The notes beneath the pieces are model-generated. The model ran no database searches. It saw nothing but the letters and a program-made list of their open reading frames with translations, and was not told the DNA's origin. From a virus (Duplodnaviria > Caudoviricetes), in IMG/VR virus record IMGVR_UViG_3300025387_000009: 64,000 nt of DNA, one strand, 5' to 3'. Position numbers and translations under genes: made by a program. The number at the start of each line of letters is the position of its first letter. Positions within the stretch are counted from its first letter, which is position 1. This document shows, one piece after another, positions 21,603-48,298 of this stretch.

Positions 21603-21676
21603 GGGAGTGAAGCATTAAAGTGATGCAATAAACTTTTAATTTATTGAAGAGGGAGCGTTACCCTCCACTCCTACCA
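21603..21676 (+). tRNA. trnK: tRNA-Lys(UUU), non-canonical T-loop AGCGTTA
   Basis: GGGAGTG/CACTCCT acceptor, ATAAA-CTTTTAA-TTTAT arm, CCA. Confidence 0.8.
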
Positions 21677-21911
21677 GTTTCAAATTACCATGATCGAACT
21701 CCCAATGATGATTAGGACAAAGCAAAACAAGATTATCAATATGATTGATTGTATTAAGTCTTACATTATCTTCAAAATCAGCAATCGGGATTTTATGAGC
21801 AACTTCTACATGAGCATCATAACCACAAACTGCACAGACTTTAGGAGCATCTTTCATAACCACACAACGAGAGTGCCATCTTATGTAAGCGTATGCTGTT
21901 TCACTTTTCAA
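21636..21911 (-). CDS. HNH endonuclease, possibly N-terminally truncated
   Basis: CAVCG..EVAHKIP..NLVLLCPNHHWEFD. Confidence 0.75.
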   Translation of the reverse strand: MKSETAYAYIRWHSRCVVMKDAPKVCAVCGYDAHVEVAHKIPIADFEDNVRLNTINHIDNLVLLCPNHHWEFDHGNLKLVGVEGNAPSSIN

Positions 21912-22015
21912 AAACTTCGCCTTGGGCGAAATCCTTTAAAAGATATTCTTTTACCCAAATAAAAAAAGTTGAAAATAGTTCTTGCATCTTTCTGGGGATA
22001 GTGTATAGTCATTCC

Positions 22016-22245
22016 ATAGTTGAAATGCTACTGGTGAACGGACTAGCTATCCGTAGTCGCCACAGGTCTCAAGTCCTGATCGTGTTGGTAACCCCAGCAC
22101 AAATGCAGAGAGCAACTACAGAAAAACAAGCAGTGCTGTGCAGACTTATGGGGGCGGTTGCAACCCACGCCATAAGATGCCGAGTCGGAGGTATTGAAAA
22201 ATATCACGGCGAAGTCCTTGACGAAGGATCAGCACCTAGTTTTTA
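22016..22245 (+). ncRNA. Candidate structured ncRNA
   Basis: Own promoter TTGCAT-16-TATAGT; several hairpins by eye; no credible ORF. Confidence 0.45.
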
Positions 22246-22262
22246 ATACCAACCACACCACC

Positions 22263-22676
22263 ATGAACCACCAGAAAGTCACACCAGCAGAGAACATCGG
22301 CTTCAAAGACAACAACAACTGCACCATTGTTGCCCTTTCAACTGCGGCGGGTATTCCTTATACCGAAGCATACAAGATCGGAGAGCAGTCTGGACGCAAG
22401 CATGGCAAGGGATTCTATACTGCCAAGTTGATGGAGACTGCTAGGAAAAACGGGATAGAGTATCGCAAGATCAAGACAGGCGGAATTACTGTACAGAAAT
22501 TCTTGCAGAAGTATCCTACTGGTCGTTATGTTGTCAATCGTAGAGATCATGCCTTCGCCATCATTGATGGTACAATCTACGATCACCTTCAAAACAAACC
22601 CATGCAGAGGATCATCGGAATCTGGAATGTTCAATCAAAAAGACTTGACACAATCAAATCCCTCTGCAACTCTTAA
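22263..22676 (+). CDS. Conserved phage protein, possible Cys-His-Asp peptidase fold
   Basis: NNCTIVALSTAAGIPY...HAFAIIDGTIYD. Confidence 0.6.
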   Translation: MNHQKVTPAENIGFKDNNNCTIVALSTAAGIPYTEAYKIGEQSGRKHGKGFYTAKLMETARKNGIEYRKIKTGGITVQKFLQKYPTGRYVVNRRDHAFAIIDGTIYDHLQNKPMQRIIGIWNVQSKRLDTIKSLCNS

Positions 22677-22681
22677 TCCCT

Positions 22682-23254
22682 ATGATCACACCTACCACCA
22701 TCACCAATTACAATCGCACCGAAGAAGAACTGGAAGAGTTCTTGATGTTCGCAATCCTTGTCGCAGGAAAGGGAGCAGAGCAACAGGCAAAGAAACTGGA
22801 TGCTTTTCTCACTCTTTGCTTGCACAAGCATCGCAACAAACCATTTGCCCACATCAAGCATCTTGCGAGTATGGGTTGGCTTGAGATTCACATGAAGCAG
22901 TTCAAGCTAGGTCAATACAATCGTGTTGGCAATGCCTTCAAGGAGATCCTCAAGTTCAAGGGTAAACTCAAGAAGGTGACTATCGAAGAACTGGAGAGTG
23001 TCAAGGGAATTGGTAGCAAGACTGCTAGGTTCTTTGTCCTGCACTCTCGACCAGATGCCAAGGTTGCAGTCCTTGACACTCATATCTTAAAGTGGATGAG
23101 TGAGAAGGGATACAAGGTTCCCAAGGCAACTCCCCCCAAAAAGAAATATGCAGATATTGAGAAATTGTTCTTGACAGAGGCAATCAATCATCAGATGACC
23201 CCAGCAGATTTGGACTTGACTATCTGGAAGTCCTATGCTACAAAGGCAAAATGA
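22682..23254 (+). CDS. HhH-GPD DNA glycosylase/lyase (Ogg-like)
   Basis: LESVKGIGSKTA helix-hairpin-helix with Lys; VAVLDTHILKW with catalytic Asp. Confidence 0.8.
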   Translation: MITPTTITNYNRTEEELEEFLMFAILVAGKGAEQQAKKLDAFLTLCLHKHRNKPFAHIKHLASMGWLEIHMKQFKLGQYNRVGNAFKEILKFKGKLKKVTIEELESVKGIGSKTARFFVLHSRPDAKVAVLDTHILKWMSEKGYKVPKATPPKKKYADIEKLFLTEAINHQMTPADLDLTIWKSYATKAK

Positions 23255-23379
23255 AAACCACATCATTCTCAATCGTCATCAAAGACATCAAGATTCGCAA
23301 GCACTTCGCACCTGCTACCAAGAAGATCAATTCAAAAAAGATCTACAAGAGAAACAAAGTTGTTGACACCAGAGACTAG
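23251..23379 (+). CDS. Small basic protein (42 aa)
   Basis: ATGA overlap; hand-translated. Confidence 0.45.
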   Translation: MKTTSFSIVIKDIKIRKHFAPATKKINSKKIYKRNKVVDTRD

Positions 23380-23564
23380 TTCTGCCATACTTCTAATCCT
23401 ATGAAAGACCCAATTACCCTTTTGCTTCGTTTCTTTGGAAAGGAAGTAAATCCCAAAACCTCCCTGTTGTATAAACACATCATGGAGACAACACACAGCA
23501 ATTGGCACACACGCCTATTCAACAACAACCAAATCGGAAAATACGAATACAACCTGTACAACAA

Positions 23565-24155
23565 ATGAAATCAGTTCTACCAATTCAAATCGAAACACCA
23601 ACTCTCAACGAGAGAACGTTCCATATTGGAGGGTGTGTCCAAGGAGCAAAACCAGTGGCAGGAATCTTCTGCTACAGTTTTGAGCATTGGGATTTTGCAA
23701 GATCTTTAAACAAGAAAGCACTTGAAACTTTCAAGAGTCTTGTCAATGAGATTCTTGAGATTAAACTGGATCAACTTATGGATGATTCGGAGATCTGGCA
23801 GATTGAAGGAAATTGGATGGGAATGCTTCATGACTCATACCACATTCTGGTTGTCAAGAATCTTCAGAAGGCAATCAATACCGACAAGTGGCATATGGAA
23901 AGTGATATGTTCATGGAGGATGCACTCTACCAGATGCTTGAAGAATCCTTTGCTCTTGCTGGTGACAATGAAGGATATGGTGACCATCGTAAGAAGTGGG
24001 CATCGGTTTTCAAGTCCCTTGGTTGGAAAGATGAGAACGAACTCTTCGCAAACGGAACCCCAGAAGATCTTTATTGGGATCTTGACTTTGAGATGCTCAA
24101 GCCAAGCAAGAAGGCAATAAAGGATTACTGTGACTTTCTTCGCAAAGCATATTAA
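23565..24155 (+). CDS. Hypothetical protein
   Basis: ORF track, ATG 23565. Confidence 0.65.
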   Translation: MKSVLPIQIETPTLNERTFHIGGCVQGAKPVAGIFCYSFEHWDFARSLNKKALETFKSLVNEILEIKLDQLMDDSEIWQIEGNWMGMLHDSYHILVVKNLQKAINTDKWHMESDMFMEDALYQMLEESFALAGDNEGYGDHRKKWASVFKSLGWKDENELFANGTPEDLYWDLDFEMLKPSKKAIKDYCDFLRKAY

Positions 24156-24193
24156 TACTTGACAAAAAGTTAAAACCTGTTAAGATATAAAGA

Positions 24194-24290
24194 TTGGTGG
24201 TATCTATTGAGAGTAGTGGCTCAATAGAGTTCATAGGGAAGCCCTTCCTCCTCCTAGTGGTTTGGGGGGAGGAAGGCAACCCGACACCAG
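24194..24290 (+). ncRNA. Candidate structured 5' leader or small RNA
   Basis: After TTGACA/TAAGAT promoter; closing stem TGGTG/CACCA, CTATTGAG/CTCAATAG, long purine/pyrimidine stem. Confidence 0.45.
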
Positions 24291-24306
24291 ACAAAAACAA
24301 AACTAT

Positions 24307-24492
24307 ATGAAGCACATCCCAACCCTCCAAGTCCTCTTCTTCCAAGAACATAATCTGTATGGTTATGAATATGATGACGAAACAGGCTTGACACAGACTG
24401 AATACGGACATCTCACCCTTGATGCCTGTCTTGGTTCTGCCTTCAAACATCTCAAGACTTTCCTTGTCTTGCCAGATGTTGAAACTCGTTAA
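24307..24492 (+). CDS. Hypothetical protein
   Basis: ATG 24307. Confidence 0.55.
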   Translation: MKHIPTLQVLFFQEHNLYGYEYDDETGLTQTEYGHLTLDACLGSAFKHLKTFLVLPDVETR

Positions 24493-24538
24493 AAATAATC
24501 ATTGACATTCTAAATCCTTTCTGCAAGGATCGCACCCT

Positions 24539-24751
24539 ATGACAACCACAAGACCCACCATCCAAATCTCCACGACTATGTTCTGGAGTGTCTACAACAC
24601 CCTTCTCAATACCGAGAGGGCATTAGCCGAACTAGAGGACGAGAACCTCTATCCCAACCAGATCGAAGCACACAAAGATGTTTGCACTGCTCTGGGTCGT
24701 TTGGAAACAATCGTGTCAACTCTAAAGGACATTGATTATAATGCAAACTGA
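24539..24751 (+). CDS. Hypothetical protein
   Basis: ORF track, TTGACA upstream. Confidence 0.6.
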   Translation: MTTTRPTIQISTTMFWSVYNTLLNTERALAELEDENLYPNQIEAHKDVCTALGRLETIVSTLKDIDYNAN

Positions 24752-25004
24752 AACCATACAGAAGAAACCCAGAAAGCCCAAGAAGGTTTCCAGAGACTCG
24801 ACGCACTTCCTGATTCATGTATATGGTGACAAGGAAATGCTTCAGCATCTTTATTCCGTAGGGGATGTTCCCAAGGATAAGAAGAAAGCACTTGACTTGA
24901 TGAAGGATCTCTATACAACGGATCTGATGCACAGCAAGTATTATTTCTATGAACTGGTGGAGCAATCCTTCAAGACAATCGACACCTTGCCCAACAACAA
25001 ATGA
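24741..25004 (+). CDS. Hypothetical protein
   Basis: ORF track. Confidence 0.55.
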   Translation: MQTETIQKKPRKPKKVSRDSTHFLIHVYGDKEMLQHLYSVGDVPKDKKKALDLMKDLYTTDLMHSKYYFYELVEQSFKTIDTLPNNK

Positions 25005-25276
25005 CAACATTCACAGGCGAACAGAGAAGCGAAGGATACGAAAATACCAAATGGCAGAATATCTATATCTCGCCTTCAGTAAATCCATCCAAGAAAGAAG
25101 ATTGGTATCAGGTAATTGATACCAGAAAGAGTTGGAGAAACAATGACCAGTGGACTCGCATCATTAAGAGAGAAGGAGTTAGAATTAGCTTCGCAAAGAA
25201 AAGCCAGATGAGTTCATTTGATCGTGAAGTGGAAATCTATATCAATCATCATTATCCCCTGCCACAAAATGATTAA
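25001..25276 (+). CDS. Hypothetical protein
   Basis: ATGA overlap. Confidence 0.6.
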   Translation: MTTFTGEQRSEGYENTKWQNIYISPSVNPSKKEDWYQVIDTRKSWRNNDQWTRIIKREGVRISFAKKSQMSSFDREVEIYINHHYPLPQND

Positions 25277-25403
25277 CACGATTCTTACGATTCTGCTTGC
25301 AATCGTGCTAGCATATCTGTTACCTTTCAACATCATCCTTGCCCTTTTGCTTGTGGTGATCATCATTCAGTTAAACAAATAAACAACCAACCAAACCAAA
25401 CAC

Positions 25404-26039
25404 ATGCCCAACCATTGCACCAACCTACTGATCTGCACTAGCGGAAAGACCATCGGAGAACTTGTCAAGCCCTATATCTCCGAGAGAACCGATAGACAAG
25501 GAGTGGAGAGATTCCTTGACTTCAATAAGATTGTCCCAATGCCTCCCTGCATTGAAGAGTCTTCTAAGTTTGGAGACATCGACTACATTACCTCAAAGAG
25601 GACTCCAGAAGAGGAAGCCATTGAGAAACAAAAACAGGATGAAAATAAACAAACCTGTGTAGACGAGACAGGTTTTAGCGGATGGTATGAGTGGTGTAAA
25701 GCCAAGTGGGATACCAAGTGGAATTCCTACAGCAACCTTACTCTGGAGGATTCTTCCAATGAGATTGAGGATCTGAGCAGCTACTGCTTCCAGACTGCAT
25801 GGTGTCCCCCAACCAATGTCATTCGTGAACTCGCTAAGATTACCGGAGAGACCATTGAGATGTATTACTACGACGAAGGACACATGTTCTTTGGATGCAC
25901 CACGTTCTCTAAGGATAGTGAGAACGACGAATGCTACGAAGCAGAAGAAGCGGCGGACATCGACCCAGAAAGTGATATCTACAAGTATTGCGATCTTGAC
26001 TATTACTTTGAGATGCATGAAGATGATGATGAAGAGTAA
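25404..26039 (+). CDS. DUF1281/YubB ferredoxin-like domain protein
   Basis: MPNHCTN..DFNKIVPMP..WYEWCKAKWDTKWN..FQTAWCPP. Confidence 0.8.
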   Translation: MPNHCTNLLICTSGKTIGELVKPYISERTDRQGVERFLDFNKIVPMPPCIEESSKFGDIDYITSKRTPEEEAIEKQKQDENKQTCVDETGFSGWYEWCKAKWDTKWNSYSNLTLEDSSNEIEDLSSYCFQTAWCPPTNVIRELAKITGETIEMYYYDEGHMFFGCTTFSKDSENDECYEAEEAADIDPESDIYKYCDLDYYFEMHEDDDEE

Positions 26040-26044
26040 TCATC

Positions 26045-26242
26045 ATGACAGAGAATCAGTACAAAGATCTCACTAGGAAGGCAATGATAAGGGAGTATCT
26101 ACTCTTAAGACAGAATACGATCTCCCTTATCGATGCCACCAATGAACTCTACGGCTTTATAGAAGAGAACTTCCAAGAAGACGATGAGTTTAAAGAAAAA
26201 CTTGACAACTACGATCAACTAGTAGAGAGTATAAATCTGTAA
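26045..26242 (+). CDS. Hypothetical protein
   Basis: ORF track. Confidence 0.6.
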   Translation: MTENQYKDLTRKAMIREYLLLRQNTISLIDATNELYGFIEENFQEDDEFKEKLDNYDQLVESINL

Positions 26243-26300
26243 CCGTGTTTTTATACAACACCGTGTTAAAATACAACACCGTGTTTTATTACCACGCAAG
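26242..26300. repeat. 18-bp-period tandem repeat ATACAACACCGTGT
   Basis: Units at 26253 and 26271 plus a partial unit, then TATTACCACGCAAG. Confidence 0.75.
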
Positions 26301-26345
26301 TACGCACACAACACCCGTAACCCACACACGCTCGTATACCCGCAT

Positions 26346-26546
26346 ATGAAGATTAAAACCAGTATAGTAATTAACTCAGAAGATGCTGACTACATCATCG
26401 AAGTCTCAGAGGATTGTTCAGACTACACGACAATCAAGGAAAGACTTGATGATGAGACAGAGAAGATCGTTCTGACTATCCCAAATAAGCAGATAGAAGA
26501 ATTCTCTCAGGCAATCCAAGAACACATCAGAATCCACGGACTATGA
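26346..26546 (+). CDS. Hypothetical protein
   Basis: ORF track. Confidence 0.55.
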   Translation: MKIKTSIVINSEDADYIIEVSEDCSDYTTIKERLDDETEKIVLTIPNKQIEEFSQAIQEHIRIHGL

Positions 26547-26758
26547 AAATAGCACACGACCCAGATCCCAGAAACATAGGTTACTGTAAGGGGGGTTTAT
26601 CCACGGATATGATGAAGGAGTTTCAAACAACCCCTACGACGGAGGAAGCTTTAATTACGACGAACTCTATAGACACCTTCAATACAAGATTGGATATGAT
26701 GCAGGAGTCGCTGAATACTGTACAGATTTCCATCCAGAAGAACAGTCTTCGTAAGTAA
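26543..26758 (+). CDS. Hypothetical protein
   Basis: ORF track. Confidence 0.5.
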   Translation: MKIAHDPDPRNIGYCKGGLSTDMMKEFQTTPTTEEALITTNSIDTFNTRLDMMQESLNTVQISIQKNSLRK

Positions 26759-26968
26759 TTGTAAGATAATAACTTGTAGGATAAATGAATATAATGTGTT
26801 CATTTATCTTACAACGCAGTCTTGGGTGGATATAGAAGAAACATTTTATTTTACCCAAACTAATATATGGATGTTATATTAGTTAAAAAACATATACGAA
26901 AAAAAATTAATATAACTTAATTCTTTTTTCTTGATTAGTTGCTAGGGATTTGATCTACTGGTTGTCCT

Positions 26969-27223
26969 ATGAGCAAAGTACCACACAACACCGACGAGGG
27001 TTTCGCCCTCACCACCCCAGCCCAGATCGACACCTTCCGTCTGGCTACCATCAAGATGGGATTGAAGGCACTCCAACACGGCATGGTCATCACCAGAGGA
27101 GCCAATGCCAAGTACCTCCTCTCCTGCCTCTCCCAGTATACTGGCAAGAAGTATTCCCCTCGCAAAGATGTCCAGCAGGGAATCGCTGACATCGAAGAGA
27201 TCATGAGGAAGGTCACCTCCTAA
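26969..27223 (+). CDS. Hypothetical protein
   Basis: ORF track, terminator follows. Confidence 0.65.
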   Translation: MSKVPHNTDEGFALTTPAQIDTFRLATIKMGLKALQHGMVITRGANAKYLLSCLSQYTGKKYSPRKDVQQGIADIEEIMRKVTS

Positions 27224-27240
27224 AAATCCCCCAATCAAAA

Positions 27241-27270
27241 ATCCCCTTGCAAGTCAAGGGGATTTTTTTT
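27241..27270 (+). terminator. Rho-independent terminator
   Basis: ATCCCCTTG/CAAGGGGAT plus T8. Confidence 0.85.
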
Positions 27271-27547
27271 GTATTCATACCTTGGGGAGAATTATTTGAA
27301 AGAAATTATTTTACCCAAGGTTCCAATGCCTTGGGCGTATGCTCCAAAAAGTTTGGGTAAAATGAAATCTTTTTTCCTTCAGACTTTTTTGATTTTGTCA
27401 ATAGGGAAAAATAAAAATCACCTACCCCTAAAAATAGCAGTTGACCAATGAGGAGGAATATGATCTACTTGATCCATAGTCAAAAACGGCTATGACCTCT
27501 AAACCGAAGGTGCAAATCGGAAAGGGCGGAAATCCCTTATTGATAGT

Positions 27548-28009
27548 ATGAACATCGAAATCATCAAGCAAATCGTCAAGAGCCGCAAGGGGTCGAACCT
27601 CTCGGCTGTTATCACCAAGACCCTCAAGACCAAAAAGCCCCATGCTGGCAACAAGATCGAGAAGATCACCAAGCTGGTCATTCGTGGTGGCGTTGAATAC
27701 GACAACATGGGAGTTGTCAAGGAAGGTCGTGAGGAAGGAACTCTCCCTTCCGAAAACGCTGGTCTGCCTTGGGGTGAGTGGTCAGAGTATCCCCTTCACA
27801 TTACCCACAAGGGAGCAGATTACGCTCGGTTCTACCCTGCTTCTGGTATCAAGTTCACCCCTCATGTTGAGTATTTCCTCAACGGAGTGAGCGTTGACAA
27901 GAGCGTGATTGAGCCTCTGGTTCTCGCCTCTGAACTCCCCAAGCCCAAGGAGGAAGAGCCTTTGTGCTTTACAATCAAAGCGGAGAATGTAAAGGATATC
28001 ATCCTCTAA
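27548..28009 (+). CDS. Hypothetical protein
   Basis: 153 aa, biased codon usage. Confidence 0.7.
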   Translation: MNIEIIKQIVKSRKGSNLSAVITKTLKTKKPHAGNKIEKITKLVIRGGVEYDNMGVVKEGREEGTLPSENAGLPWGEWSEYPLHITHKGADYARFYPASGIKFTPHVEYFLNGVSVDKSVIEPLVLASELPKPKEEEPLCFTIKAENVKDIIL

Positions 28010-28022
28010 TTTCCCCCCAACC

Positions 28023-28057
28023 GAAGAGAGGGAGTCACCCCCCGACTCCCTCTCTTC
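28023..28057. terminator. Perfect 14-bp hairpin without U tract
   Basis: GAAGAGAGGGAGTC/GACTCCCTCTCTTC. Confidence 0.5.
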
Positions 28058-28111
28058 AACCTTCAAAAAAAAAACAAAACACCGATAAAACATATCATTC
28101 TACCCAACATC

Positions 28112-28895: not shown

Positions 28896-28912
28896 TTGCC
28901 ATAGAAAAAACC

Positions 28913-29468: not shown

Positions 29469-29482
29469 TCCATCTAGAAATT

Positions 29483-37141: not shown

Positions 37142-37236
37142 GGTGGGTTAGTGTAATTGGAAGCACGATATAGTTTATACCTATAACTTCCCTAGATGAG
37201 GGATTAGCATGGGTTCGATTCCCATACCCACTTCCA
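37142..37236 (+). tRNA. Atypical tRNA with UAU anticodon, long variable arm, U73
   Basis: GGTGGGT/ACCCACT acceptor, TATAG-TTTATAC-CTATA arm, 23-nt V region, GGTTCGATTCC, CCA. Confidence 0.75.
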
Positions 37237-41536: not shown

Positions 41537-41553
41537 AAAGATAAGTATTCTAT

Positions 41554-42495
41554 ATGTTTACTTTTGTTATTGGTTTGGTAGCATTAATTGTTGCTGGCTG
41601 TGCAGCATTCTTTTCAGTTCAGGGTTTAGCTTCATTATATGCAGCTAGATTTATTGCCGTCTGTGTGATGGCAGGAGGATTAGAAGTCGGTAAACTAGTT
41701 GCCGCATCATTCCTTCATCGTTATTGGAAAACAACCGGATGGTTACTTAAAACTTATTTAACTCTTGCTGTTATTATTTTAATGGGCATAACTTCTCTTG
41801 GTATTTTTGGTTTCTTAACCGCTGCTTATCAGCAAAGTCACGTTAAAGTAGAACTCACGGATGTAAAACAGGAAGCATTAAATTCAAAGAAAGAATTTTT
41901 AAACATTGAAATTAAACAGCTTAATGATAGAATCAATACTTTAAATGAAGCAAGAAAAGCACAAGAAGCCAGACTCCCTAATTTATCTAGACGATCCGCT
42001 GCCCCCATTTACGAAGACATCAAACGATCATCTGAAGAAATTACAGAAACAAGAAATAGAGTGGCACAACTTACCACTGACCTCTTCAAAACATCCTCTG
42101 AGTCAATTCAAGAAAAGATTGAAGGTTCAAAAGAAGTTGACATTGGGACTCTCAAATATGTGGCAAAGGCGTTTGGAGTTGATATGGATACTATTGTTAA
42201 GTGGTTTACTTTGGGTATCGTTTTGGTATTTGATCCTCTTGCAGTGGCATTGGTTTTAGCATACAACTCATTAATAGAAAAAAAATCTGAACCCGTCGAA
42301 TTCGACGGGTTTAAAAAAGAATTAACTAAAGCGGAAAATTCTGAAAATTCACTTTTAGTTAATTCAAATGAATACATTAAAGAAGAAAATTCTGAAAATT
42401 CACCTTTAATGAATTCTAATTCCCCTGAAAACGAGGGAATTAAGAATAGTGGTATTCGCAAAAATTTAAATAACGCAATTAATTACAGAGTATGA
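41554..42495 (+). CDS. Multi-TM plus coiled-coil membrane protein (DUF4407-like)
   Basis: LEVGKLVAASFL..ITSLGIFGFLT..VFDPLAVALVLA. Confidence 0.7.
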   Translation: MFTFVIGLVALIVAGCAAFFSVQGLASLYAARFIAVCVMAGGLEVGKLVAASFLHRYWKTTGWLLKTYLTLAVIILMGITSLGIFGFLTAAYQQSHVKVELTDVKQEALNSKKEFLNIEIKQLNDRINTLNEARKAQEARLPNLSRRSAAPIYEDIKRSSEEITETRNRVAQLTTDLFKTSSESIQEKIEGSKEVDIGTLKYVAKAFGVDMDTIVKWFTLGIVLVFDPLAVALVLAYNSLIEKKSEPVEFDGFKKELTKAENSENSLLVNSNEYIKEENSENSPLMNSNSPENEGIKNSGIRKNLNNAINYRV

Positions 42496-42659
42496 ATAAA
42501 GTACCTTATAACACAAATAGAAAATATAGAGATTTTGATTGGGAAAAGGAAGAGATAAAACCTGAAAAAGATATTTTAAATGTTAAAAAATTAAGAGATT
42601 TAAAGAAATCAAGATTTGAGTCCTTTAAACAGACCTTTAGAAATATCTTTAAAAAATAA
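42492..42659 (+). CDS. Small basic protein (55 aa)
   Basis: ATGA overlap; hand-translated MNKVPYNTNR... Confidence 0.5.
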   Translation: MNKVPYNTNRKYRDFDWEKEEIKPEKDILNVKKLRDLKKSRFESFKQTFRNIFKK

Positions 42660-42696
42660 TTGACATATTTATAATCATCATTTATTATATGGTGAT

Positions 42697-43803
42697 ATGT
42701 CAAATTCATACGATAAGCAACAGCTAATAGAACAAGCTAGAGAGCTTCAGACTCAAGGTAAAACAAACACCGAAATTTCAAAACTTCTGGATGTTCCTAG
42801 GAAGACTATCTATAACTGGATTGGTAATAGTTTGAATGTTACATCTCGCTCTTACATTGAGGAGGAGCCAATTATTAACGAAGACGGTGAATATATTGGT
42901 AATGCACTAAAGGTTTTTAAGCAGAATGATGCAGATGGTGATGAGGTTTTGCAGTTCTTGGAGCAATTGACTCCCATTCATTATGATCCACCAAAGAGAT
43001 CACAGGTTAGGCAAGAAGCTGCTAAATCAGCTGTTGTAATTGGTGATCTGCATTTTGGCGTTGAGCATCAACCCACAATTGAAATCTTCTTTAAAGTTGT
43101 TGAAGAAGTAAAACCAGAGAAAATCATTCTCAATGGTGACACTCTTGATATGCTTTCAATTAGCACCTATTCAAATGATGTTCGTCACAACTATTCGCTT
43201 GCTGATGAACTAAAGAAGTATCATGCATTCTTGAAGACGTTGCATGATATTACCGAAGCATGGGATTGTGAAATCTTGGAAACTAATGCAAACCATTCTG
43301 GTAATAGTCAGGAAGGTAGATGGTGGAGATATCTCAGTAAGCAAATTGGTCAGGCGGCATCGTTGCCTAGAATTCAAGAATTGCTTTCTTATGATAATGT
43401 ATTTTACCCAAACGAATCTTGGTGTAGAATCAAGTTGGTTGATGAAGTAGTTCTCCCAACAAACTTGATCGTTAAGCACGGTACAGCAGTTAGAAAAAAT
43501 GGTGGTCAGTCAGCAAGAGCAGAGTACGAAAAAGTTTTTGCTTCAACTATTACTAATCACGTTCATCGTTTTGGTGCTACCTCGCAGAGACATCCTGCTG
43601 TCGGTAACAGAAAAGCAGTTACATATTACAATTATGAGAATGCTTGCGCCTGTGATCTAAACCCTTCATATGTAAAAGATCCGAATTGGCAGAATGGATT
43701 TTCAATTGTTAATTATGGTGATGAAGTAGTGGGTGTTGATTTTGTTGCTGTCCACGAAGATATTGCTTGCGTTAATACCCTTAGAAAGACTATTAGAGCT
43801 TAA
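42697..43803 (+). CDS. HTH plus calcineurin-like metallophosphoesterase
   Basis: EISKLLDVPRKTIYNW; GDLHFG, NGDTLD, ANH, KHG, HVHR. Confidence 0.85.
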   Translation: MSNSYDKQQLIEQARELQTQGKTNTEISKLLDVPRKTIYNWIGNSLNVTSRSYIEEEPIINEDGEYIGNALKVFKQNDADGDEVLQFLEQLTPIHYDPPKRSQVRQEAAKSAVVIGDLHFGVEHQPTIEIFFKVVEEVKPEKIILNGDTLDMLSISTYSNDVRHNYSLADELKKYHAFLKTLHDITEAWDCEILETNANHSGNSQEGRWWRYLSKQIGQAASLPRIQELLSYDNVFYPNESWCRIKLVDEVVLPTNLIVKHGTAVRKNGGQSARAEYEKVFASTITNHVHRFGATSQRHPAVGNRKAVTYYNYENACACDLNPSYVKDPNWQNGFSIVNYGDEVVGVDFVAVHEDIACVNTLRKTIRA

Positions 43804-44471
43804 ATTTCCTTCAAAATAACCATCCCATCACTATCTATAATGATATAATGAGATGGAGAGTCACAGAAAGATCCAGTATTATAATAGCTTTTGTTGGTTT
43901 TTATGCAGTGATATTCTTCTGCGTAATGGACATGACCACCAAAAATTGCATCGTATTGTGTATTGTGAATATATTCCAATGCTTTATACTTGATTTTATC
44001 TTTAACTTCTAGGAAAGTTTTACTGCTTCTTTTTAACCATATAGCCAATGGCTTATGTAGTTTTTGAAAAAAATAATAGATTTTTTCAGCGATACTTGTC
44101 AATAAACCATAACTGGCAATAAAGGTATCAAATATGTCTAAGTGCAAGAATAAGAAGCGTTTATCACTAATTTGCATTTCATATTTTTCAACGAATTCTA
44201 TACCCAATATTCCAGCAAGAGCTTCGGAATTTCTATCGTGATTTCCTCTTATTAGGATAACTTCTTTTTTCTTTGAAATTTTTCTGATAGTTTCCAAAAC
44301 CTTCCAATGTTTCTTTTTATATCTTTCAAAATAGTTATTATCCAATAAATCACCATTAATGATTAACTTATCGTATTTCTCTTCGGTTAAAACCTTTAAG
44401 ATTGCATCGGTGCGACTGACGGGTGAACCAAGATGAATGTCCGAAATTACTAGGGTTTTGCCTTGTATCAT
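43800..44471 (-). CDS. Metallophosphoesterase, LpxH-like
   Basis: SDIHLG, INGDLLD, RGNHD, GGHVH. Confidence 0.85.
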   Translation of the reverse strand: MIQGKTLVISDIHLGSPVSRTDAILKVLTEEKYDKLIINGDLLDNNYFERYKKKHWKVLETIRKISKKKEVILIRGNHDRNSEALAGILGIEFVEKYEMQISDKRFLFLHLDIFDTFIASYGLLTSIAEKIYYFFQKLHKPLAIWLKRSSKTFLEVKDKIKYKALEYIHNTQYDAIFGGHVHYAEEYHCIKTNKSYYNTGSFCDSPSHYIIIDSDGMVILKEI

Positions 44472-44536
44472 TTATAATATTTAGTTTAAAAGTGACCTCA
44501 AGCTATATAAGTATAATCATACAGATGTAAAATATT

Positions 44537-44941
44537 ATGAGTTTTAATCCTCTCGATCCTTTGTCACATTTAGATTCTCCATCACCAGGCAGTAAATGGT
44601 ATACAATCTTTATTAAACCAGCAGTAATGGTGGTAGCATTTATAATGTTCTCTTATGCAACTCTTTGGATGGGTCAACACTATGTAACCCAAGATAAATT
44701 TGCAGTATATGTCGAAAGACAAATAGAATCTGATAAACACGCTTCGGAAGAAGCATCAAAAAGATTTGAAGTAACACAGGAGAAGCTAGAAACCATAATT
44801 AACAATCAAAGTATCTTCTCAGAAGATTTAAAACATATTAACCAAACCGAAGCAGGTCTAGATAAAAGAATGGACAATTTAGATCAACGTTTAATTTACT
44901 TAGAAAGAAAAGCTGGTACTATACAAACACCTGCCCAGTAA
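44537..44941 (+). CDS. Single-TM coiled-coil membrane protein
   Basis: TM 26-46 then heptads; TAAGTA upstream. Confidence 0.6.
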   Translation: MSFNPLDPLSHLDSPSPGSKWYTIFIKPAVMVVAFIMFSYATLWMGQHYVTQDKFAVYVERQIESDKHASEEASKRFEVTQEKLETIINNQSIFSEDLKHINQTEAGLDKRMDNLDQRLIYLERKAGTIQTPAQ

Positions 44942-44942
44942 T

Positions 44943-45110
44943 ATGAAATTTGATGCTTTAGTTGCTTCTATATTAGAAGAAAAAAAAGATGCTTGTTACT
45001 ATAAAGTAAAGAGCAGATATAAGGTGTGGCCCTCCGCCTACGCATCCGGTGCATTGGTTAAATGTCGTAAAAAGGGTGCTAAAAATTGGGGTAAATCTAA
45101 AAAGAAATGA
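44943..45110 (+). CDS. Small basic leader protein (DUF5872-like)
   Basis: Hand-translated MKFDALVASILEE-KKDACYYKVKSRYKVWPSAYASGALVKCRKKG. Confidence 0.7.
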   Translation: MKFDALVASILEEKKDACYYKVKSRYKVWPSAYASGALVKCRKKGAKNWGKSKKK

Positions 45111-45364
45111 AATTTGATTCACTTGTAGCAACTTTATTAGAAGGTTTCGAAAAGGAAAAACGTGAAGGACTTCACGGGTGGTTTTCACGCAGAGGTGCAG
45201 GTGGTCAAAAAGGTTGGATAGATTGTAAAACTGGTAAGGTTTGCGGTAGACAAAAAGGCGAAAAAAGAAAAGGTTATCCAGCTTGTCGCCCTACAAAAGC
45301 AATGTGTTCAGCAAGTAAAAGAAAAAAGAAAGGTCATAAAGCAATCAGATGGAAAAAGAAATAA
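45107..45364 (+). CDS. Small basic leader protein (DUF5872-like)
   Basis: MKFDSLVATLLE..GLHGWF..WIDC..CGR..YPACRP. Confidence 0.7.
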   Translation: MKFDSLVATLLEGFEKEKREGLHGWFSRRGAGGQKGWIDCKTGKVCGRQKGEKRKGYPACRPTKAMCSASKRKKKGHKAIRWKKK

Positions 45365-45500
45365 ATCTTTATAAAATAATAAGAAGTGTTATTACTGAAG
45401 TCAACTGTTGGAAAGGTTATCACAAAAAAGGAACTAAAAACTTTTTGGTAAAATAGTAAATAACTGTGTTAAAAACAAAAAGAAAAAGAAGTAATATTTG

Positions 45501-45677
45501 ATGCATAACAAAAGACATAACTATCGTCAGGCTGTTGTAATAACGGAAAATCACCCTTCATTAGAAAGAGGTCAGATTATAGAGATTCTTCGTGAGGAAG
45601 AATTTTATTATGTAGTTCAATCAGGAAGAACTGGTAGTATTGAAAAAATTGAGAAAAAAGATTTATCTTTTGATTGA
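45501..45677 (+). CDS. Small SH3-like protein (58 aa)
   Basis: Hand-translated MHNKRHNY..LERGQIIEIL. Confidence 0.45.
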   Translation: MHNKRHNYRQAVVITENHPSLERGQIIEILREEEFYYVVQSGRTGSIEKIEKKDLSFD

Positions 45678-45719
45678 CATCAAAGGGTTGGTGTGGTAAG
45701 TTATTAATATAAATTTATT

Positions 45720-45794
45720 GCCTCTGTAGCTCAGTGATAGAGCTTTCGCCTTGTAAGCGAAGGGTCGTCGGTTTAATCCCGACCAGAGGCTCCA
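45720..45794 (+). tRNA. trnT: tRNA-Thr(UGU)
   Basis: TTCGC-CTTGTAA-GCGAA, CCA. Confidence 0.9.
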
Positions 45795-45797
45795 TAT

Positions 45798-45872
45798 ACG
45801 TTGGTGGCAGACAAGAAATGCAGCAGTCTCCAAAACTGCCTTATGTGGGAGCGTTACCCACCCAACGTGCCA
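45798..45872 (+). tRNA. trnW: tRNA-Trp(CCA), T-loop AGCGTTA
   Basis: ACGTTGG/CCAACGT, GCAGT-CTCCAAA-ACTGC, G73, CCA. Confidence 0.8.
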
Positions 45873-45878
45873 ATTTAT

Positions 45879-45951
45879 CGCAGGGTGGACAAGTGGTTAA
45901 GTCATCTGGCTCATAACCAGAGGATCGTGGGTTCAAATCCCACCCCTGCCA
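45879..45951 (+). tRNA. trnfM: Initiator-type tRNA-Met(CAU), CCA not encoded
   Basis: C1:C72 mismatch, TCTGG-CTCATAA-CCAGA, GTTCAAATC. Confidence 0.85.
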
Positions 45952-46097
45952 ATTGTAAGTATATATGTGCTTGATCCACTAGAAGCCGCTATGACAGGAG
46001 TATCTGTTTTGATATTTTTTTTGGGATATTTTATTTTAAGTATCATCATCTTTATTGTTGACTTTGTGCGAAAACATCTCTAAGATATATAAATAGA

Positions 46098-46172
46098 GTC
46101 GCCATCATCTAACGGTTAGGATACACGGTTTTCATCCGTGGAATAGGGGTTCGATTCCCCTTGGCGATGCCA
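46098..46172 (+). tRNA. trnE: tRNA-Glu(UUC)
   Basis: CACGG-TTTTCAT-CCGTG, CCA. Confidence 0.92.
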
Positions 46173-46180
46173 GTTTTTTT

Positions 46181-46254
46181 GGGCGTATGATGTAACGGTA
46201 GCCTGTTAGTCTTCCAAACTTAATGAGAGGGTTCGATTCCCTCTACGCCCTCCA
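46181..46254 (+). tRNA. trnG: tRNA-Gly(UCC)
   Basis: Loop CTTCCAA, U73, CCA. Confidence 0.9.
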
Positions 46255-46268
46255 AGTGTAAGTATAAG

Positions 46269-46853
46269 ATGAAAGATAGGGATAGCCTAATATTAGAATT
46301 TTTATACGAGAAGGTATCTTCTCCGATTGTTGTAGTCGGAGGAATTCATGGAGATGAAGTAGCTGGAACTATTGCTGCCGATAGATTTAAAGGTAAAGAA
46401 GGAATCTACGTTATATCCCATGTCAATAAGACAGGAAAAAGAAGAGATGGTTCAATTGATTTAAATAGACACTTTGACCAAAAGGATTCGGTAGAAAAAG
46501 AAGATAGAATTTTAAATAAAATTTTATCTTTAAAACCAAGAGTCGTAATAGCACTACATGAAGATTGTGATGGAAGTGGAATCTATGCTTATTGTAATCC
46601 AGAGTTTAAAGAAAAGCTAAAGGATATATTGGCATCAATTCATGCACCGAAAGCAAAGAGTGCATGTGGAGATAAAACAGAGGATGGTGTTATTTCTTTC
46701 GGTCACTTGCCAACAAAGGGAACATTAGAAAGAGCAATGAGAAAAAGAGGTATTCCTTATTGCACACTAGAAACCCCTATGGATTGGGATAAGAAAGAAA
46801 GAGCAGATTATTTAGAAACCATTGCAAATAAAATTATTTCTGCTTATAGCTGA
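46269..46853 (+). CDS. M14-type zinc carboxypeptidase/deacylase with leader
   Basis: GGIHGDE, DLNRHF, ALHED, TLETP. Confidence 0.8.
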   Translation: MKDRDSLILEFLYEKVSSPIVVVGGIHGDEVAGTIAADRFKGKEGIYVISHVNKTGKRRDGSIDLNRHFDQKDSVEKEDRILNKILSLKPRVVIALHEDCDGSGIYAYCNPEFKEKLKDILASIHAPKAKSACGDKTEDGVISFGHLPTKGTLERAMRKRGIPYCTLETPMDWDKKERADYLETIANKIISAYS

Positions 46854-47206
46854 TTTAAAAATTCTTTAGGGTGAGTATTAAATTTCTTCAAATACTTGTG
46901 GAGTTTTTCGCTGTTGAGTAAACCATGTAAAAAATTGTGATTTATATCATGATCATTCTTATAATAGATTAAGAATTTCTTGATCTTGTGTAAAAGGTTA
47001 TTCGGATCTTTTTTATGGTCATCCGATAACAGATCAATCTCCCAGATATCATCTCCGATATCAATATAGATAACATGTGGCTTCTCATCTGGTACTTCTC
47101 CGCTTTTTTCTTCTTCACCAATATCATCTTCTTTAATATCAGCACCAGAGTAATGATTCATCTTTTCATAAATCATCTGTAATTTTTTTTCGTCGTTATC
47201 TTTCAC
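46844..47206 (-). CDS. Leader-family protein
   Basis: MKDNDEKKLQMIYEKM; TAAATA 6 nt upstream. Confidence 0.6.
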   Translation of the reverse strand: MKDNDEKKLQMIYEKMNHYSGADIKEDDIGEEEKSGEVPDEKPHVIYIDIGDDIWEIDLLSDDHKKDPNNLLHKIKKFLIYYKNDHDINHNFLHGLLNSEKLHKYLKKFNTHPKEFLNQL

Positions 47207-47257
47207 TATTAATATTTATGCTTTACATGACACCTTTCTATGATAAGATATTAATAC

Positions 47258-47465
47258 GGTTGGGGGGTAGCAAATCACCTAACTAGGAAACGAATCTTTG
47301 CTGATTGGTAAGTTGGGATGACTTTCTGAATGGTAACTAGCGAAGCTACAGGAGCTATGATGTTACTGATTAGAACAACATTAGCTATACGGATAGGGCA
47401 GCGTTCCACGCAGCCTTGCCCGTTGAAGAAGGAACAAAGTGCGCAACAAAATCCTTCAAACACCA
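47258..47465 (+). ncRNA. Candidate ~210-nt structured ncRNA ending in ACCA
   Basis: TTTACA-16-TAAGAT promoter, five or more hairpins, paired ends, T run after. Confidence 0.55.
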
Positions 47466-47518
47466 CGTTTTTTTTAAATGGTTTATTGAAATGTATCGTC
47501 ATAACTATAAGTATTTTT

Positions 47519-48001
47519 ATGGATAATAAATGTATATTTTGTAGTAGACAAATTTTAAATAAGGGTTCATTAACCGCTCATCAAAAAACATGCAAACAAA
47601 ATCCTAATAAAATTAAATTTTATCATTCACCAAAAGCAGGTGGTCAAAGAGGATTAGTTGGTTGGAGTAAAGGTAAAATATTTGAAAAAGAAAATCTCGA
47701 AAGGAATTTACAATTGATAGAATCCGGTGAATATAAAAAATTTGGAGAAACTCACATAAGAAGAAGAATTAAAAAATATTTGATTCATAAGCATGGTCAT
47801 AAATGCATGATATGTGGTTTAACTGAATGGAGAGGTGTACAAATACCTTTAGTTGCTGATCATATAGATGGTAATTCTGAAAATAATGATCTCTCAAATT
47901 TTAGAATAATTTGCAATAATTGTGATTCCATACTGCCAACATTCAAAGCTAAAAATACAGGTAAAGGAAGAAAGGGAAGATATTTAAAAAAATATTCTTG
48001 A
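47519..48001 (+). CDS. HNH endonuclease with N-terminal C2H-type finger
   Basis: CIFC..HQKTC; CMICG..ADHIDGNSENN..NFRIICNNCD; TAAGTA upstream. Confidence 0.88.
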   Translation: MDNKCIFCSRQILNKGSLTAHQKTCKQNPNKIKFYHSPKAGGQRGLVGWSKGKIFEKENLERNLQLIESGEYKKFGETHIRRRIKKYLIHKHGHKCMICGLTEWRGVQIPLVADHIDGNSENNDLSNFRIICNNCDSILPTFKAKNTGKGRKGRYLKKYS

Positions 48002-48034
48002 TATAAAAAAATAATTTGATAAGATATTAAAAGT

Positions 48035-48123
48035 GGGAGCGTGACTGAGTGATTTAAAGTATCCGATTACTAATCGGAAGAACCCAAAAGGTTCCGTGGG
48101 TTTGAATCCCACCGCTCCTTCCA
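48035..48123 (+). tRNA. trnS: tRNA-Ser(ACU)
   Basis: TCCGA-TTACTAA-TCGGA, long arm GAACC/GGTTC, U73, CCA. Confidence 0.8.
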
Positions 48124-48128
48124 AATAT

Positions 48129-48220
48129 GGCAGGTTGGTAGAGTCCGGTTTATTGCACCGCACTTGAAATGCGGAGAACCTTTATCGGTTCCGTGGGTTC
48201 GAATCCCACACCTGCTTCCA
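48129..48220 (+). tRNA. trnS: tRNA-Ser(UGA)
   Basis: CCGCA-CTTGAAA-TGCGG, long arm, U73, CCA. Confidence 0.92.
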
Positions 48221-48226
48221 TTTTTT

Positions 48227-48298
48227 GCCTGATGAGACAGCAAGAGAAGTCCACGGTCTGCAAAACCGTTATGTTCGGAGCGTTACCGAAATCAGGCT
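48227..48298 (+). tRNA. trnC: tRNA-Cys(GCA), T-loop AGCGTTA, CCA not encoded
   Basis: GCCTGAT/ATCAGGC, ACGGT-CTGCAAA-ACCGT, U73. Confidence 0.78.

What the first reader, a model, noticed from the sequence alone, without database searches (positions are those of the whole stretch)
21603..48298. Three tRNAs share a rewired elbow (T-loop AGCGUUA, D-loop AAG without GG)
Seen: Lys(UUU), Trp(CCA) and Cys(GCA) all replace UUCRA with AGCGUUA and lack G18G19. Known: U54-A58 and G18-Psi55 build the elbow; TrmA/TruB need U54/U55; tRNA-Lys is cut by PrrC and PARIS AriB, and phage tRNA variants can rescue. Inference: a compensated alternative elbow that is modification-independent and possibly nuclease-evading.
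Basis: partly seen in the sequence, partly recalled or inferred. Interest (0 to 1): 0.6.

Follow-up and report, generated by a model that had tools for sequence, protein, structure and literature searches.

The report
Phage tRNAs with a rewired elbow
Three transfer RNA genes of an uncultured T4-like phage replace the near-universal corner contacts of tRNA with a different, mutually matching set of bases. The same design recurs in many other phage tRNAs, so it looks like a working second way to build the tRNA corner, one that host enzymes and some anti-phage nucleases should not recognise.

Summary
tRNA-Lys(UUU) 21603-21676, tRNA-Trp(CCA) 45798-45872 and tRNA-Cys(GCA) 48227-48298 all have T-loop AGCGUUA and a D-loop with AAG in place of GG.

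They are real tRNAs:
- All three fold as cloverleaves.
- Their relatives in other viral contigs show many compensatory stem changes.
- The synthetase identity marks are kept: A73; G73 with CCA; U73 with GCA and a 13:22 mismatch.
- Each sits 3-6 nt from ordinary tRNAs and is the only tRNA for its amino acid in the window.

Across 756 tRNAs from about 140 viral loci, the elbow changes covary almost perfectly:
- 18:55 is G:U or A:G.
- 54:58 is U:A or A:U, and the A:U form goes with A60.
- 19:56 is G:C, A:U, U:A or C:G.

G19-C56 is therefore kept in these three tRNAs; only G18 is lost. Three more tRNAs in the window (Thr, Ser, Ala) have swapped 19:56 pairs.

AGCGUUA tRNAs occur with 19 anticodons, so nothing ties the design to Lys or to anticodon nucleases. 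Escape from enzymes and nucleases that read U54-U55, such as the Cash Schlafen nuclease, is plausible but untested.

I found no paper describing this. The scan has noted the same A18-G55 design before on other DNA.

The parts
21603..21676 (+). tRNA-Lys(UUU) with encoded CCA; T-loop AGCGUUA, D-loop UAAAGUG, and A8 with U14
   Evidence: Rfam RF00005 at 44 bits; missed by ARAGORN. Cloverleaf is the minimum-energy fold. Seven relatives: 99.4% of cells paired, 14 of 23 pairs changed on both sides, 0 of 500 shuffles as good.
21654..21660 (+). Lys T-loop AGCGUUA (positions 54-60)
21616..21622 (+). Lys D-loop UAAAGUG (U14 ... A18 G19)
45798..45872 (+). tRNA-Trp(CCA) with encoded CCA, A1-U72 and G73; T-loop AGCGUUA at 45850-45856, D-loop ACAAGAA at 45811-45817
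   Evidence: ARAGORN; no Rfam match even at E up to 10. The acceptor stem covaries in 6 relatives. 85% identical outside the loops to Trp tRNAs with a canonical elbow.
48227..48298 (+). tRNA-Cys(GCA), U73, no encoded CCA; T-loop AGCGUUA at 48279-48285, D-loop GCAAGAGA at 48240-48247, G8 with G14, A13 opposite A22
   Evidence: Missed by ARAGORN and Rfam; found by my cloverleaf parser. 12 distinct relatives: U73 in 12 of 12, and 18 of 21 stem pairs changed on both sides.
45720..45794 (+). tRNA-Thr(UGU) with a swapped 19:56 pair (T-loop UUUAAUC, D-loop AGUGAUA, giving A19-U56)
48035..48123 (+). tRNA-Ser(ACU) with A19-U56 (T-loop UUUGAAU, D-loop with GA)
54285..54358 (+). tRNA-Ala(UGC) with C19-G56 (T-loop UUGAAUU, D-loop AGUGCUA)
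21439..21597 (+). Canonical tRNA-Met(CAU) and tRNA-Arg(UCU), which form one tight cluster with Lys (spacers of 9 and 5 nt)
45878..45952 (+). Canonical tRNA-Met(CAU), 5 nt after Trp; Thr-Trp-Met form one cluster
48129..48220 (+). Canonical tRNA-Ser(UGA), 6 nt before Cys; Ser-Ser-Cys form one cluster

Best explanation
The three genes encode working elongator tRNAs. They are transcribed in tight clusters with ordinary phage tRNAs and are most likely charged by the host's Lys-, Trp- and Cys-tRNA synthetases.

Their corner (elbow) is held by a second, internally consistent set of contacts:
- G19-C56, the flat outer face that RNase P, the ribosome and T-boxes stack on, is kept.
- The intercalating G18 with its partner U55 is replaced by A18 with G55. 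This is the 'G at loop position 2, adenine intercalator' arrangement of riboswitch and rRNA T-loops.
- The U54:A58 reverse-Hoogsteen pair is replaced by A54:U58, together with A60, G57 and U59.

Shown: the sequences, the cloverleaf covariation, the covariation of the tertiary partners, and the retained identity elements.

Inferred: the three-dimensional geometry, and charging and decoding in the cell. It is also inferred that these tRNAs cannot receive m5U54, pseudouridine 55 or Gm18, and that they no longer show the U54-U55-C56 site read by host proteins.

I think the most likely reason for the design is to be invisible to host factors that read that site. This reason is much less certain than the structural reading.
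For: Structure and function:
- Cloverleaf minimum-energy folds.
- Lys family: 14 of 23 pairs changed on both sides, 99.4% paired, 0 of 500 shuffles as good.
- Trp family: 4 acceptor pairs changed on both sides.
- Cys family: 18 of 21 stem pairs changed on both sides.

Identity marks are kept: A73 in all Lys; G73 with A1-U72 or G1-U72 in Trp; U73 in 12 of 12 Cys, with A or G at 13 opposite A22 as in E. coli tRNA-Cys.

Each gene lies 3-6 nt from canonical tRNAs, and none duplicates another tRNA of the window.

Elbow covariation in 756 tRNAs from viral loci plus the window:
- UUC.A loops with GG 519, with AG 2.
- UGC.A with AG 44, with GG 2.
- AGC.U with AG 26, with GG 0.
- AUC.U with GG 22, with AG 0.
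- With 7-nt D-loops, GC goes with AG in 53 of 53, UC with GG in 165 of 168, UU with GA in 5 of 6.
- A54:U58 goes with A60 in 79 of 84, against a pyrimidine in 648 of 661 canonical loops.

A natural minimal pair: the Trp tRNAs of L086 and L022 share D stem and 5' acceptor strand, yet read D-loop AUUGGUA with T-loop UUCGAUU against AUUAGUA with UGCGAUU.

The same covariation appears in an independent set of bacterial MAG contigs.

Literature:
- FMN and cobalamin riboswitch T-loops are YGNRA with an adenine intercalator (bioRxiv 2022.12.26.521914).
- CbCash needs U54 and U55 (PMC13462974).
Against:
- No 3D model is available. An A:U pair at the 54:58 position has no precedent among 99 solved UA-handle structures: U:A 92%, the rest C:A, A:A, G:A, C:C and G:G (PMC2615604). 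Its geometry is therefore unknown.
- D-loop numbering is unambiguous only for 7-nt loops.
- The viral loci were picked because they hold AGCGTTA, so class frequencies are biased, although the covariation tables are not.
- The Cys gene lacks an encoded CCA.
Confidence: 0.8

Rival explanations
1. Reason for the design, version A: neutral compensated drift. Phage tRNAs act briefly and are under weaker constraint from modification and quality control. Double mutants that keep the geometry therefore accumulate without any benefit.
For: Many different compensated variants coexist: 19:56 as A:U, U:A or C:G; 8:14 as A:U or G:G; and all four combinations of 18:55 and 54:58. This looks like free exploration of equivalent pairs. 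Most phages carry a mixture of canonical and variant tRNAs.
Against: - The seven-base loop AGCGUUA is nearly invariant across 19 anticodons, including positions 57, 59 and 60, which vary freely in canonical loops.
- Variant tRNAs resemble canonical tRNAs of the same amino acid more than variant tRNAs of other amino acids: mean identity 0.47 against 0.42, and 0.85 for the window's Trp. This points to repeated arrival at one solution.
- Uncompensated intermediates are very rare.
Confidence: 0.4
2. Reason for the design, version B: anti-defence. Loss of U54-U55-C56 and G18 makes the phage tRNAs poor substrates for host tRNA-depleting nucleases that read the T-loop, such as Schlafen-type Cash. Phage translation can then continue after host tRNAs are cut.
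For: - CbCash cuts 5' of U55, targets the UUC motif, and single U54 or U55 mutations abolish cutting. Its authors leave phage tRNAs as an open question (PMC13462974).
- A Schlafen-Argonaute system protected less well against a phage that carries its own tRNA genes (bioRxiv 10.64898/2026.05.29.728809).
- Every variant class found (AGC, UGC, AUC, UUU, UUA, UUG) destroys UUC in a different way and pays for it with a matching D-loop change.
Against: - There is no cleavage test.
- The host and its defences are unknown.
- 13 of the 19 tRNAs in the window keep UUC, so protection would be partial.
- The same elbows occur in tRNA arrays of Verrucomicrobia genome bins.
Confidence: 0.3
3. Reason for the design, version C: self-marking. 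The elbow lets a phage-encoded factor, for example a nuclease used in host shut-off or a phage modification enzyme, tell phage tRNAs from host tRNAs.
For: Only general: degradation of host tRNA with replacement by phage tRNAs has been reported for other phages (my own knowledge, not checked here).
Against: Pfam and PHROG scans of about 80 window ORFs found no tRNA nuclease or tRNA-modifying enzyme. They found only homing endonucleases, phosphoesterases, a nucleotidyltransferase domain and a weak PNKP-phosphatase hit. Most tRNAs of the phage are canonical.
Confidence: 0.08
4. The three genes are decaying pseudogenes or non-decoding tRNA-like decoys.
For: Gene finders score them poorly. Cys lacks an encoded CCA.
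Against: - Extensive compensatory stem changes in the relatives.
- Normal 7-nt anticodon loops with U33 and A37, and conserved identity elements.
- Each is the only tRNA for Lys, Trp or Cys in the window's set.
Confidence: 0.04
5. One reading: the elbow evolved to evade anticodon nucleases that target tRNA-Lys (PrrC, PARIS AriB).
For: One of the three is tRNA-Lys(UUU).
Against: The class spans 19 anticodons. The Lys anticodon loop is the ordinary CUUUUAA. These nucleases act on the anticodon loop (established knowledge).
Confidence: 0.05

Closest known systems
Canonical bacterial and phage elongator tRNAs (Rfam RF00005), e.g. the clustered tRNAs of T4-type phages
   Same: Cloverleaf with 7/4/5/5-bp stems, 7-nt anticodon loop with U33, G19-C56, G53-C61, synthetase identity elements, tight gene clusters, mostly encoded CCA.
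   Different: U54, U55, A58, Y60 and G18 are replaced by A54, G55, U58, A60 and A18. Trp and Cys fall below the Rfam threshold.
T-loops of FMN and cobalamin riboswitches and of rRNA (YGNRA with an adenine intercalator; the 'G-clamp' of the UA_handle paper)
   Same: G at loop position 2 (tRNA position 55) combined with an adenine as the inserted base, as in A18 with G55.
   Different: Those loops keep a pyrimidine at position 1 and A at position 5. The phage loop has A at position 1 and U at position 5, a combination absent from 99 solved UA-handles.
Eukaryotic cytoplasmic initiator tRNA-Met (A54 and A60 signature)
   Same: A54 together with A60 in place of U54 and Y60. PMC7912444 describes the A54-A58 pair; the A60 part is from my own knowledge.
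   Different: The initiator keeps A58 (as m1A), U55 and G18. The phage tRNAs have U58, G55 and A18, and they are elongators for many amino acids.
Phage tRNAs that escape anticodon nucleases through anticodon-loop changes (e.g. Azam et al. 2024, PMC11555353, seen only as a reference)
   Same: Phage-borne tRNAs proposed to keep translation running under tRNA-targeting defence.
   Different: Here the anticodon loops are ordinary and the change is at the elbow. No nuclease has been tested.
tRNA gene arrays with A18-G55 elbows in Verrucomicrobia genome bins
   Same: Same AGCGUUA or UGCRA loops with AG D-loops. Even the D-arm UG GCAG ACAAGNA AUGC is as in the window's Trp.
   Different: They lie on contigs assigned to bacteria, up to 28 tRNAs in 8 kb. 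The window is a T4-like phage with scattered small clusters.

Membership tests
Elongator tRNA (RF00005) | Cloverleaf with covarying acceptor, D, anticodon and T stems | tested here: met
Elongator tRNA (RF00005) | Score above the Rfam gathering threshold (29 bits) | tested here: inconclusive
   Lys scores 44 bits. Trp and Cys give no match at E up to 10. ARAGORN finds only Trp.
Elongator tRNA (RF00005) | Conserved T-loop U54-U55-C56-R57-A58 and D-loop G18-G19 | tested here: not met
   The T-loop is AGCGUUA and the D-loop has AG at 18-19. Only C56, G57 and G19 are kept.
Elongator tRNA (RF00005) | Identity elements for the cognate synthetase (Lys: UUU and A73; Trp: CCA and G73; Cys: GCA and U73) | tested here: met
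   The rules themselves are from established knowledge of the E. coli systems.
Elongator tRNA (RF00005) | Processed, aminoacylated and used on the ribosome | not testable with these tools
T-loop motif (UA_handle plus U-turn) | [quoted passage not shown] | tested here: not met
   Positions 1 and 5 are A and U, and A:U is not among the variants listed in PMC2615604. The strict covariation (84 A:U against 2 A:A) argues that they still pair.
Riboswitch-type T-loop (YGNRA with adenine intercalator) | G at loop position 2 with an inserted adenine | tested here: met
   G55 goes with A18 in 53 of 53 tRNAs with 7-nt D-loops. Consensus.
Riboswitch-type T-loop (YGNRA with adenine intercalator) | Pyrimidine at loop position 1 and A at position 5 | tested here: not met
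   A54 and U58.
Phage tRNAs evading anticodon nucleases | Changes in the anticodon loop or stem relative to the targeted host tRNA | tested here: inconclusive
   The Lys anticodon loop is the ordinary CUUUUAA. The host tRNA is unknown.

The most novel reading that the evidence does not exclude
The rewired elbow is a counter-defence device. By replacing U54, U55 and G18 while keeping the outer G19-C56 face, phage tRNAs stay usable by RNase P, synthetases and ribosomes. At the same time they become resistant to T-loop-reading tRNA nucleases of bacterial immunity (Cash and other Schlafen-type effectors) and invisible to TrmA, TruB and TrmH. The many independent ways in which phage tRNAs destroy the UUC motif would then record an arms race at the tRNA corner.
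Probability: 0.27. Interest if true: 0.88.

Novelty: new variant of a known kind. Interest (0 to 1): 0.7.

Why it matters
U54, pseudouridine 55, C56, A58 and G18-G19 are textbook near-invariants of tRNA. Here nature supplies many tRNAs for nearly all amino acids in which these bases are exchanged in matched sets. This has several consequences:
- It gives direct covariation evidence for the 18:55, 54:58(+60), 19:56 and 8:14 tertiary contacts.
- It shows a T-loop form (A at position 1, U at position 5) with no solved precedent.
- Standard tRNA finders under-count phage tRNAs: two of the three genes here are missed by each tool.
- It offers ready-made natural substrates to test whether T-loop-cutting defence nucleases can be evaded.
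- Such tRNAs could serve as modification-free scaffolds in tRNA engineering.

Tried and rejected
- **Close relatives among cultured phages.** Megablast of 45000-49000 hit only a Ser tRNA of Cronobacter phage GAP32. The full Trp and Lys tRNAs had no hit at E 1e-3. Short T-arm queries at E 10 gave chance hits inside Pseudomonas phage genes and one tRNA-like sequence in Pseudomonas phage ventosus.
- **Whole genome and sequencing runs.** Neither is available for this window.
- **A base-paired mini-helix between the loops.** I considered that D-loop positions 17-19 or 19-20 pair with T-loop 56-58 or 55-56. The base after AG is U, A or C with no pattern, and the base before is A in 77% of the AGC.U class only. 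There is no evidence for extra Watson-Crick pairs.
- **A single ancestral variant tRNA that spread by anticodon change.** Variant tRNAs are on average closer to canonical tRNAs of the same amino acid. These sequences are short, so this is only suggestive.
- **A tRNA-related enzyme in the window that might go with the elbow.** None was found.
- **More hidden tRNAs in the window.** A strict cloverleaf scan with any T-loop found none.
- **Literature.** I found no relevant paper containing AGCGUUA, A18 with G55, or A54 with U58 together with tRNA. The Steinberg-lab selection paper on the 54-58 pair (PMC165963) is not held, so I could not check whether A54:U58 was recovered there.

Full report
**What is in the window**

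The window is part of an uncultured T4-like phage. It carries rIIA and rIIB at 17717-20862, and rIIA is about 35% identical to those of KVP40-type phages and of a 595-kb uncultured phage. No whole genome is held, and there is no close DNA relative among 50,697 deposited phage records.

ARAGORN finds 17 tRNAs and a tmRNA. Rfam finds 17 tRNA matches and the tmRNA. The two lists differ exactly at the genes in question:
- tRNA-Lys(UUU) 21603-21676 is seen only by Rfam, at 44 bits.
- tRNA-Trp(CCA) 45798-45872 is seen only by ARAGORN. Rfam gives nothing even at E up to 10.
- tRNA-Cys(GCA) 48227-48298 is seen by neither.

My own cloverleaf parser, which accepts any T-loop sequence, recovers all three and finds no further hidden tRNA.

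**The observation**

All three genes contain GGAGCGTTACC, that is the last two T-stem pairs and a T-loop AGCGUUA. There are three exact copies in 64 kb; a 1-mismatch search gave 4 matches against 0.21 expected, reached by none of 100 shuffles. Their D-loops are UAAAGUG, ACAAGAA and GCAAGAGA, all without GG. All three fold as cloverleaves at minimum free energy.

Each sits in a tight cluster with ordinary tRNAs:
- Met-Arg-Lys, with spacers of 9 and 5 nt.
- Thr-Trp-Met, with spacers of 3 and 5 nt.
- Ser-Ser-Cys, with spacers of 5 and 6 nt.

They must therefore be transcribed and processed together with their neighbours. None duplicates another tRNA of the window.

**They are real tRNAs**

In 56 of the matches the T-arm closes a full cloverleaf. 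A second scan for Cys(GCA) tRNAs with this loop gave 23 loci.

| Family | Relatives | Result |
|---|---|---|
| Lys | 7 | 99.4% of cells paired; 14 of 23 pairs changed on both sides; 0 of 500 shuffles as good |
| Trp | 6 | Body is invariant; 4 acceptor pairs change on both sides |
| Cys | 12 distinct | 18 of 21 stem pairs changed on both sides; the only position never paired is 13:22 (A:A or G:A), a known peculiarity of bacterial tRNA-Cys |

The discriminator bases are those the bacterial synthetases need:
- A73 in every Lys.
- G73 in every Trp, with A1-U72 or G1-U72.
- U73 in 12 of 12 Cys.

Pseudogenes would not keep this.

**The elbow is compensated, in separate modules**

I extracted 756 distinct tRNAs from the fetched viral loci and the window (ARAGORN plus my parser) and tabulated T-loop against D-loop.

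| T-loop class (54, 55, 56, 58) | D-loop has GG | D-loop has AG, no GG |
|---|---|---|
| UUC.A | 519 | 2 |
| UGC.A | 2 | 44 |
| AGC.U | 0 | 26 |
| AUC.U | 22 | 0 |

Positions 18 and 19 are unambiguous when the D-loop has 7 nt. In that subset:
- 55-56 = UC goes with GG in 165 of 168.
- GC goes with AG in 53 of 53.
- UU goes with GA in 5 of 6.
- UA goes with GU, and UG goes with GC (one case each).

Three contacts therefore covary independently: 18:55 (G:U or A:G), 19:56 (any Watson-Crick pair) and 54:58. The 54:58 pair is U:A 661 times, A:U 84 times and A:A only twice.

The A54:U58 form brings its own neighbours. Position 60 is A in 79 of 84, whereas it is a pyrimidine in 648 of 661 canonical loops. 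Position 57 is G in 83 of 84, and position 59 is U in 72 of 84. The D-loop is also short, 7 or 8 nt in 59 of 61.

A fourth contact, 8:14, also varies in matched form. It is A:U in the Lys family (6 A:U and 1 U:A). In the Cys family it is G:G in 5 and U:A in 7. The window's Lys has A8 with U14 and its Cys has G8 with G14.

A natural minimal pair shows the logic plainly. The Trp tRNAs of L086 and L022 share D stem and 5' acceptor strand, yet read AUUGGUA with UUCGAUU in one and AUUAGUA with UGCGAUU in the other.

G19-C56, the outer face of the elbow, is kept in the three genes, and only G18 is replaced. In the same window three further tRNAs have swapped 19:56 pairs:
- Thr 45720 has A19-U56.
- Ser(ACU) 48035 has A19-U56.
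- Ala 54285 has C19-G56.

Six of 19 tRNAs therefore have a non-canonical elbow.

**How widespread**

AGCGUUA tRNAs occur with 19 different anticodons in the loci fetched, UGCRA tRNAs with 25, and AUCGU tRNAs with 10. In some contigs most tRNAs are of variant type: 8 of 9 in L103 and 13 of 20 in L111. One contig, L139, is a close relative of the window, 97% identical over 48093-48860.

Outside the loops, variant tRNAs are on average more similar to canonical tRNAs of the same amino acid (0.47) than to variant tRNAs of other amino acids (0.42). The window's Trp is 85% identical to Trp tRNAs with a canonical elbow. This suggests that the elbow was changed repeatedly within tRNA lineages rather than inherited from one odd ancestor. 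The sequences are short, so this remains a suggestion.

There only 19 of 120 hits lay in a tRNA. Most of these were in dense tRNA arrays on Verrucomicrobia genome-bin contigs, and a few were in candidate-phyla bacteria. Those arrays show the same covariation: UGC.A with AG 99 against GG 12, and AGC.U with AG 24 against GG 2.

Among cultured phages I found only one unannotated, possibly decayed example, in the tRNA cluster of Pseudomonas phage ventosus.

**How it most likely works**

- **Kept:** C56, G19, G57, G53-C61 and all stems. RNase P, the ribosome and T-box RNAs read the elbow mainly by stacking on the G19-C56 face and through the backbone (general knowledge; review PMC4810234, found but not read in detail). 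Processing and decoding should therefore be possible.
- **Changed, first module:** G18 inserted between 57 and 58 and bonded to U55 becomes A18 with G55. This matches the T-loops of FMN and cobalamin riboswitches, which have consensus YGNRA and use an adenine almost exclusively as the inserted base. The same paper notes that tRNA T-loops differ by having U at loop position 2 (bioRxiv 2022.12.26.521914).
- **Changed, second module:** A54:U58 with A60. Among 99 solved UA-handle structures the pair is U:A in 92%, and otherwise C:A, A:A, G:A, C:C or G:G, never A:U (PMC2615604). The nearest parallel is the eukaryotic initiator tRNA with A54 (PMC7912444) and A60 (my own knowledge), but that tRNA keeps A58. 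The geometry of this module is therefore unknown; only the pairing is supported, by covariation.

**Why the design exists**

Three consequences follow from known enzyme specificities. These tRNAs cannot carry m5U54 (TrmA), pseudouridine 55 (TruB) or Gm18 (TrmH). This is inferred, not tested.

CbCash, a Schlafen effector of type III CRISPR systems, cuts tRNAs 5' of U55 and targets the UUC motif. Single U54 or U55 mutations abolish cutting, and its authors leave open whether phage tRNAs are targeted (PMC13462974). A Schlafen-Argonaute system protected less well against a phage carrying its own tRNAs.

Every variant class seen here destroys UUC in a different way and pays with a matching D-loop change. 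That is what an arms race would produce. Relaxed constraint with compensated drift would produce it too.

I cannot separate these readings with the tools at hand. My estimates are:
- about 0.4 for drift
- about 0.3 for counter-defence
- less than 0.1 each for self-marking by a phage factor, pseudogenes, and anticodon-nuclease evasion

No tRNA nuclease or tRNA-modifying enzyme was found among about 80 window ORFs.

**Novelty**

Full-text searches found no relevant paper containing AGCGUUA, none combining A18 and G55 with tRNA and the loop names, and none combining A54 and U58 with tRNA. A 2021 review of the T-loop mentions only the initiator A54 as an exception. The Steinberg-lab selection paper on the 54-58 pair could not be read.

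Earlier notes of this scan describe the same A18-G55 design on other DNA: Verrucomicrobial tRNA arrays, a 203-kb soil phage and a 231-kb gut phage. The phenomenon is therefore not unique to this window. Those notes are unchecked leads. What I tested myself here agrees with them. It adds the A60 partner of the 54:58 swap, the 8:14 variants and the natural minimal Trp pair.

**Verdict**

These are functional-looking tRNAs with a compensated, partly unprecedented elbow. The Lys and anticodon-nuclease half does not. A T-loop-nuclease evasion role is a good, testable idea.

Noticed in passing
window 37142-37236 (+): A 95-nt tRNA with anticodon UAU, a long variable arm (stem UCCCU/AGGGA), U73 and encoded CCA. 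It is a class-II shaped tRNA that would read the Ile codon AUA.
   Followed up: partly
window 48035-48123 (+): A tRNA-Ser with anticodon ACU (A34), which is unusual for bacteria. It also has U56 with A19.
   Followed up: partly
window 53825-54274 (+): A phage-encoded tmRNA (Rfam 104 bits) with tag peptide VAESLFSQEEDYCLMAA and a canonical UUCAA T-loop. It is conserved at about 70% identity in L009, L003, L064 and L080.
   Followed up: partly
L004, L006, L015, L026, L032, L038, L040, L049, L061, L067, L069 and others (viral contigs): A recurrent non-tRNA RNA. A 7-bp stem (GCCUGCC/GGCAGGC) encloses CCAAGUGGGCAAGC and a GAGGG-AGCGUUA-CCCUC arm. It looks like a tRNA top half with the same rewired T-loop and a CAAG motif, but without an anticodon arm.
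   Followed up: no
L263 1460-1535 (Pseudomonas phage ventosus MG018930.1, about 9870-9945, minus strand): An unannotated tRNA-like sequence inside the tRNA cluster of a cultured phage. It has A8/U14, D-loop UAAAGUG, anticodon loop UUUGGAA, T-loop AGCGUUA and CCA, but only 5 of 7 acceptor pairs.
   Followed up: partly
L230, L148, L143, L212, L214 (bacterial MAG contigs): Very dense tRNA arrays, up to 28 tRNAs in 8 kb, made mostly of UGCRA or AGCGUUA tRNAs, mainly in Verrucomicrobia genome bins. Their Ala tRNAs keep G3-U70.
   Followed up: partly
window 21439-21513 and 49844-49918: tRNA-Met(CAU) 21439 has A8 with A14. tRNA-Pro 49844 lacks an encoded CCA.
   Followed up: no
window 42697-47206 region: HNH, NUMOD4 and GIY-YIG (SegE-like) homing-endonuclease domains were found among the window's ORFs; their positions relative to the tRNA clusters were not mapped.
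   Followed up: no
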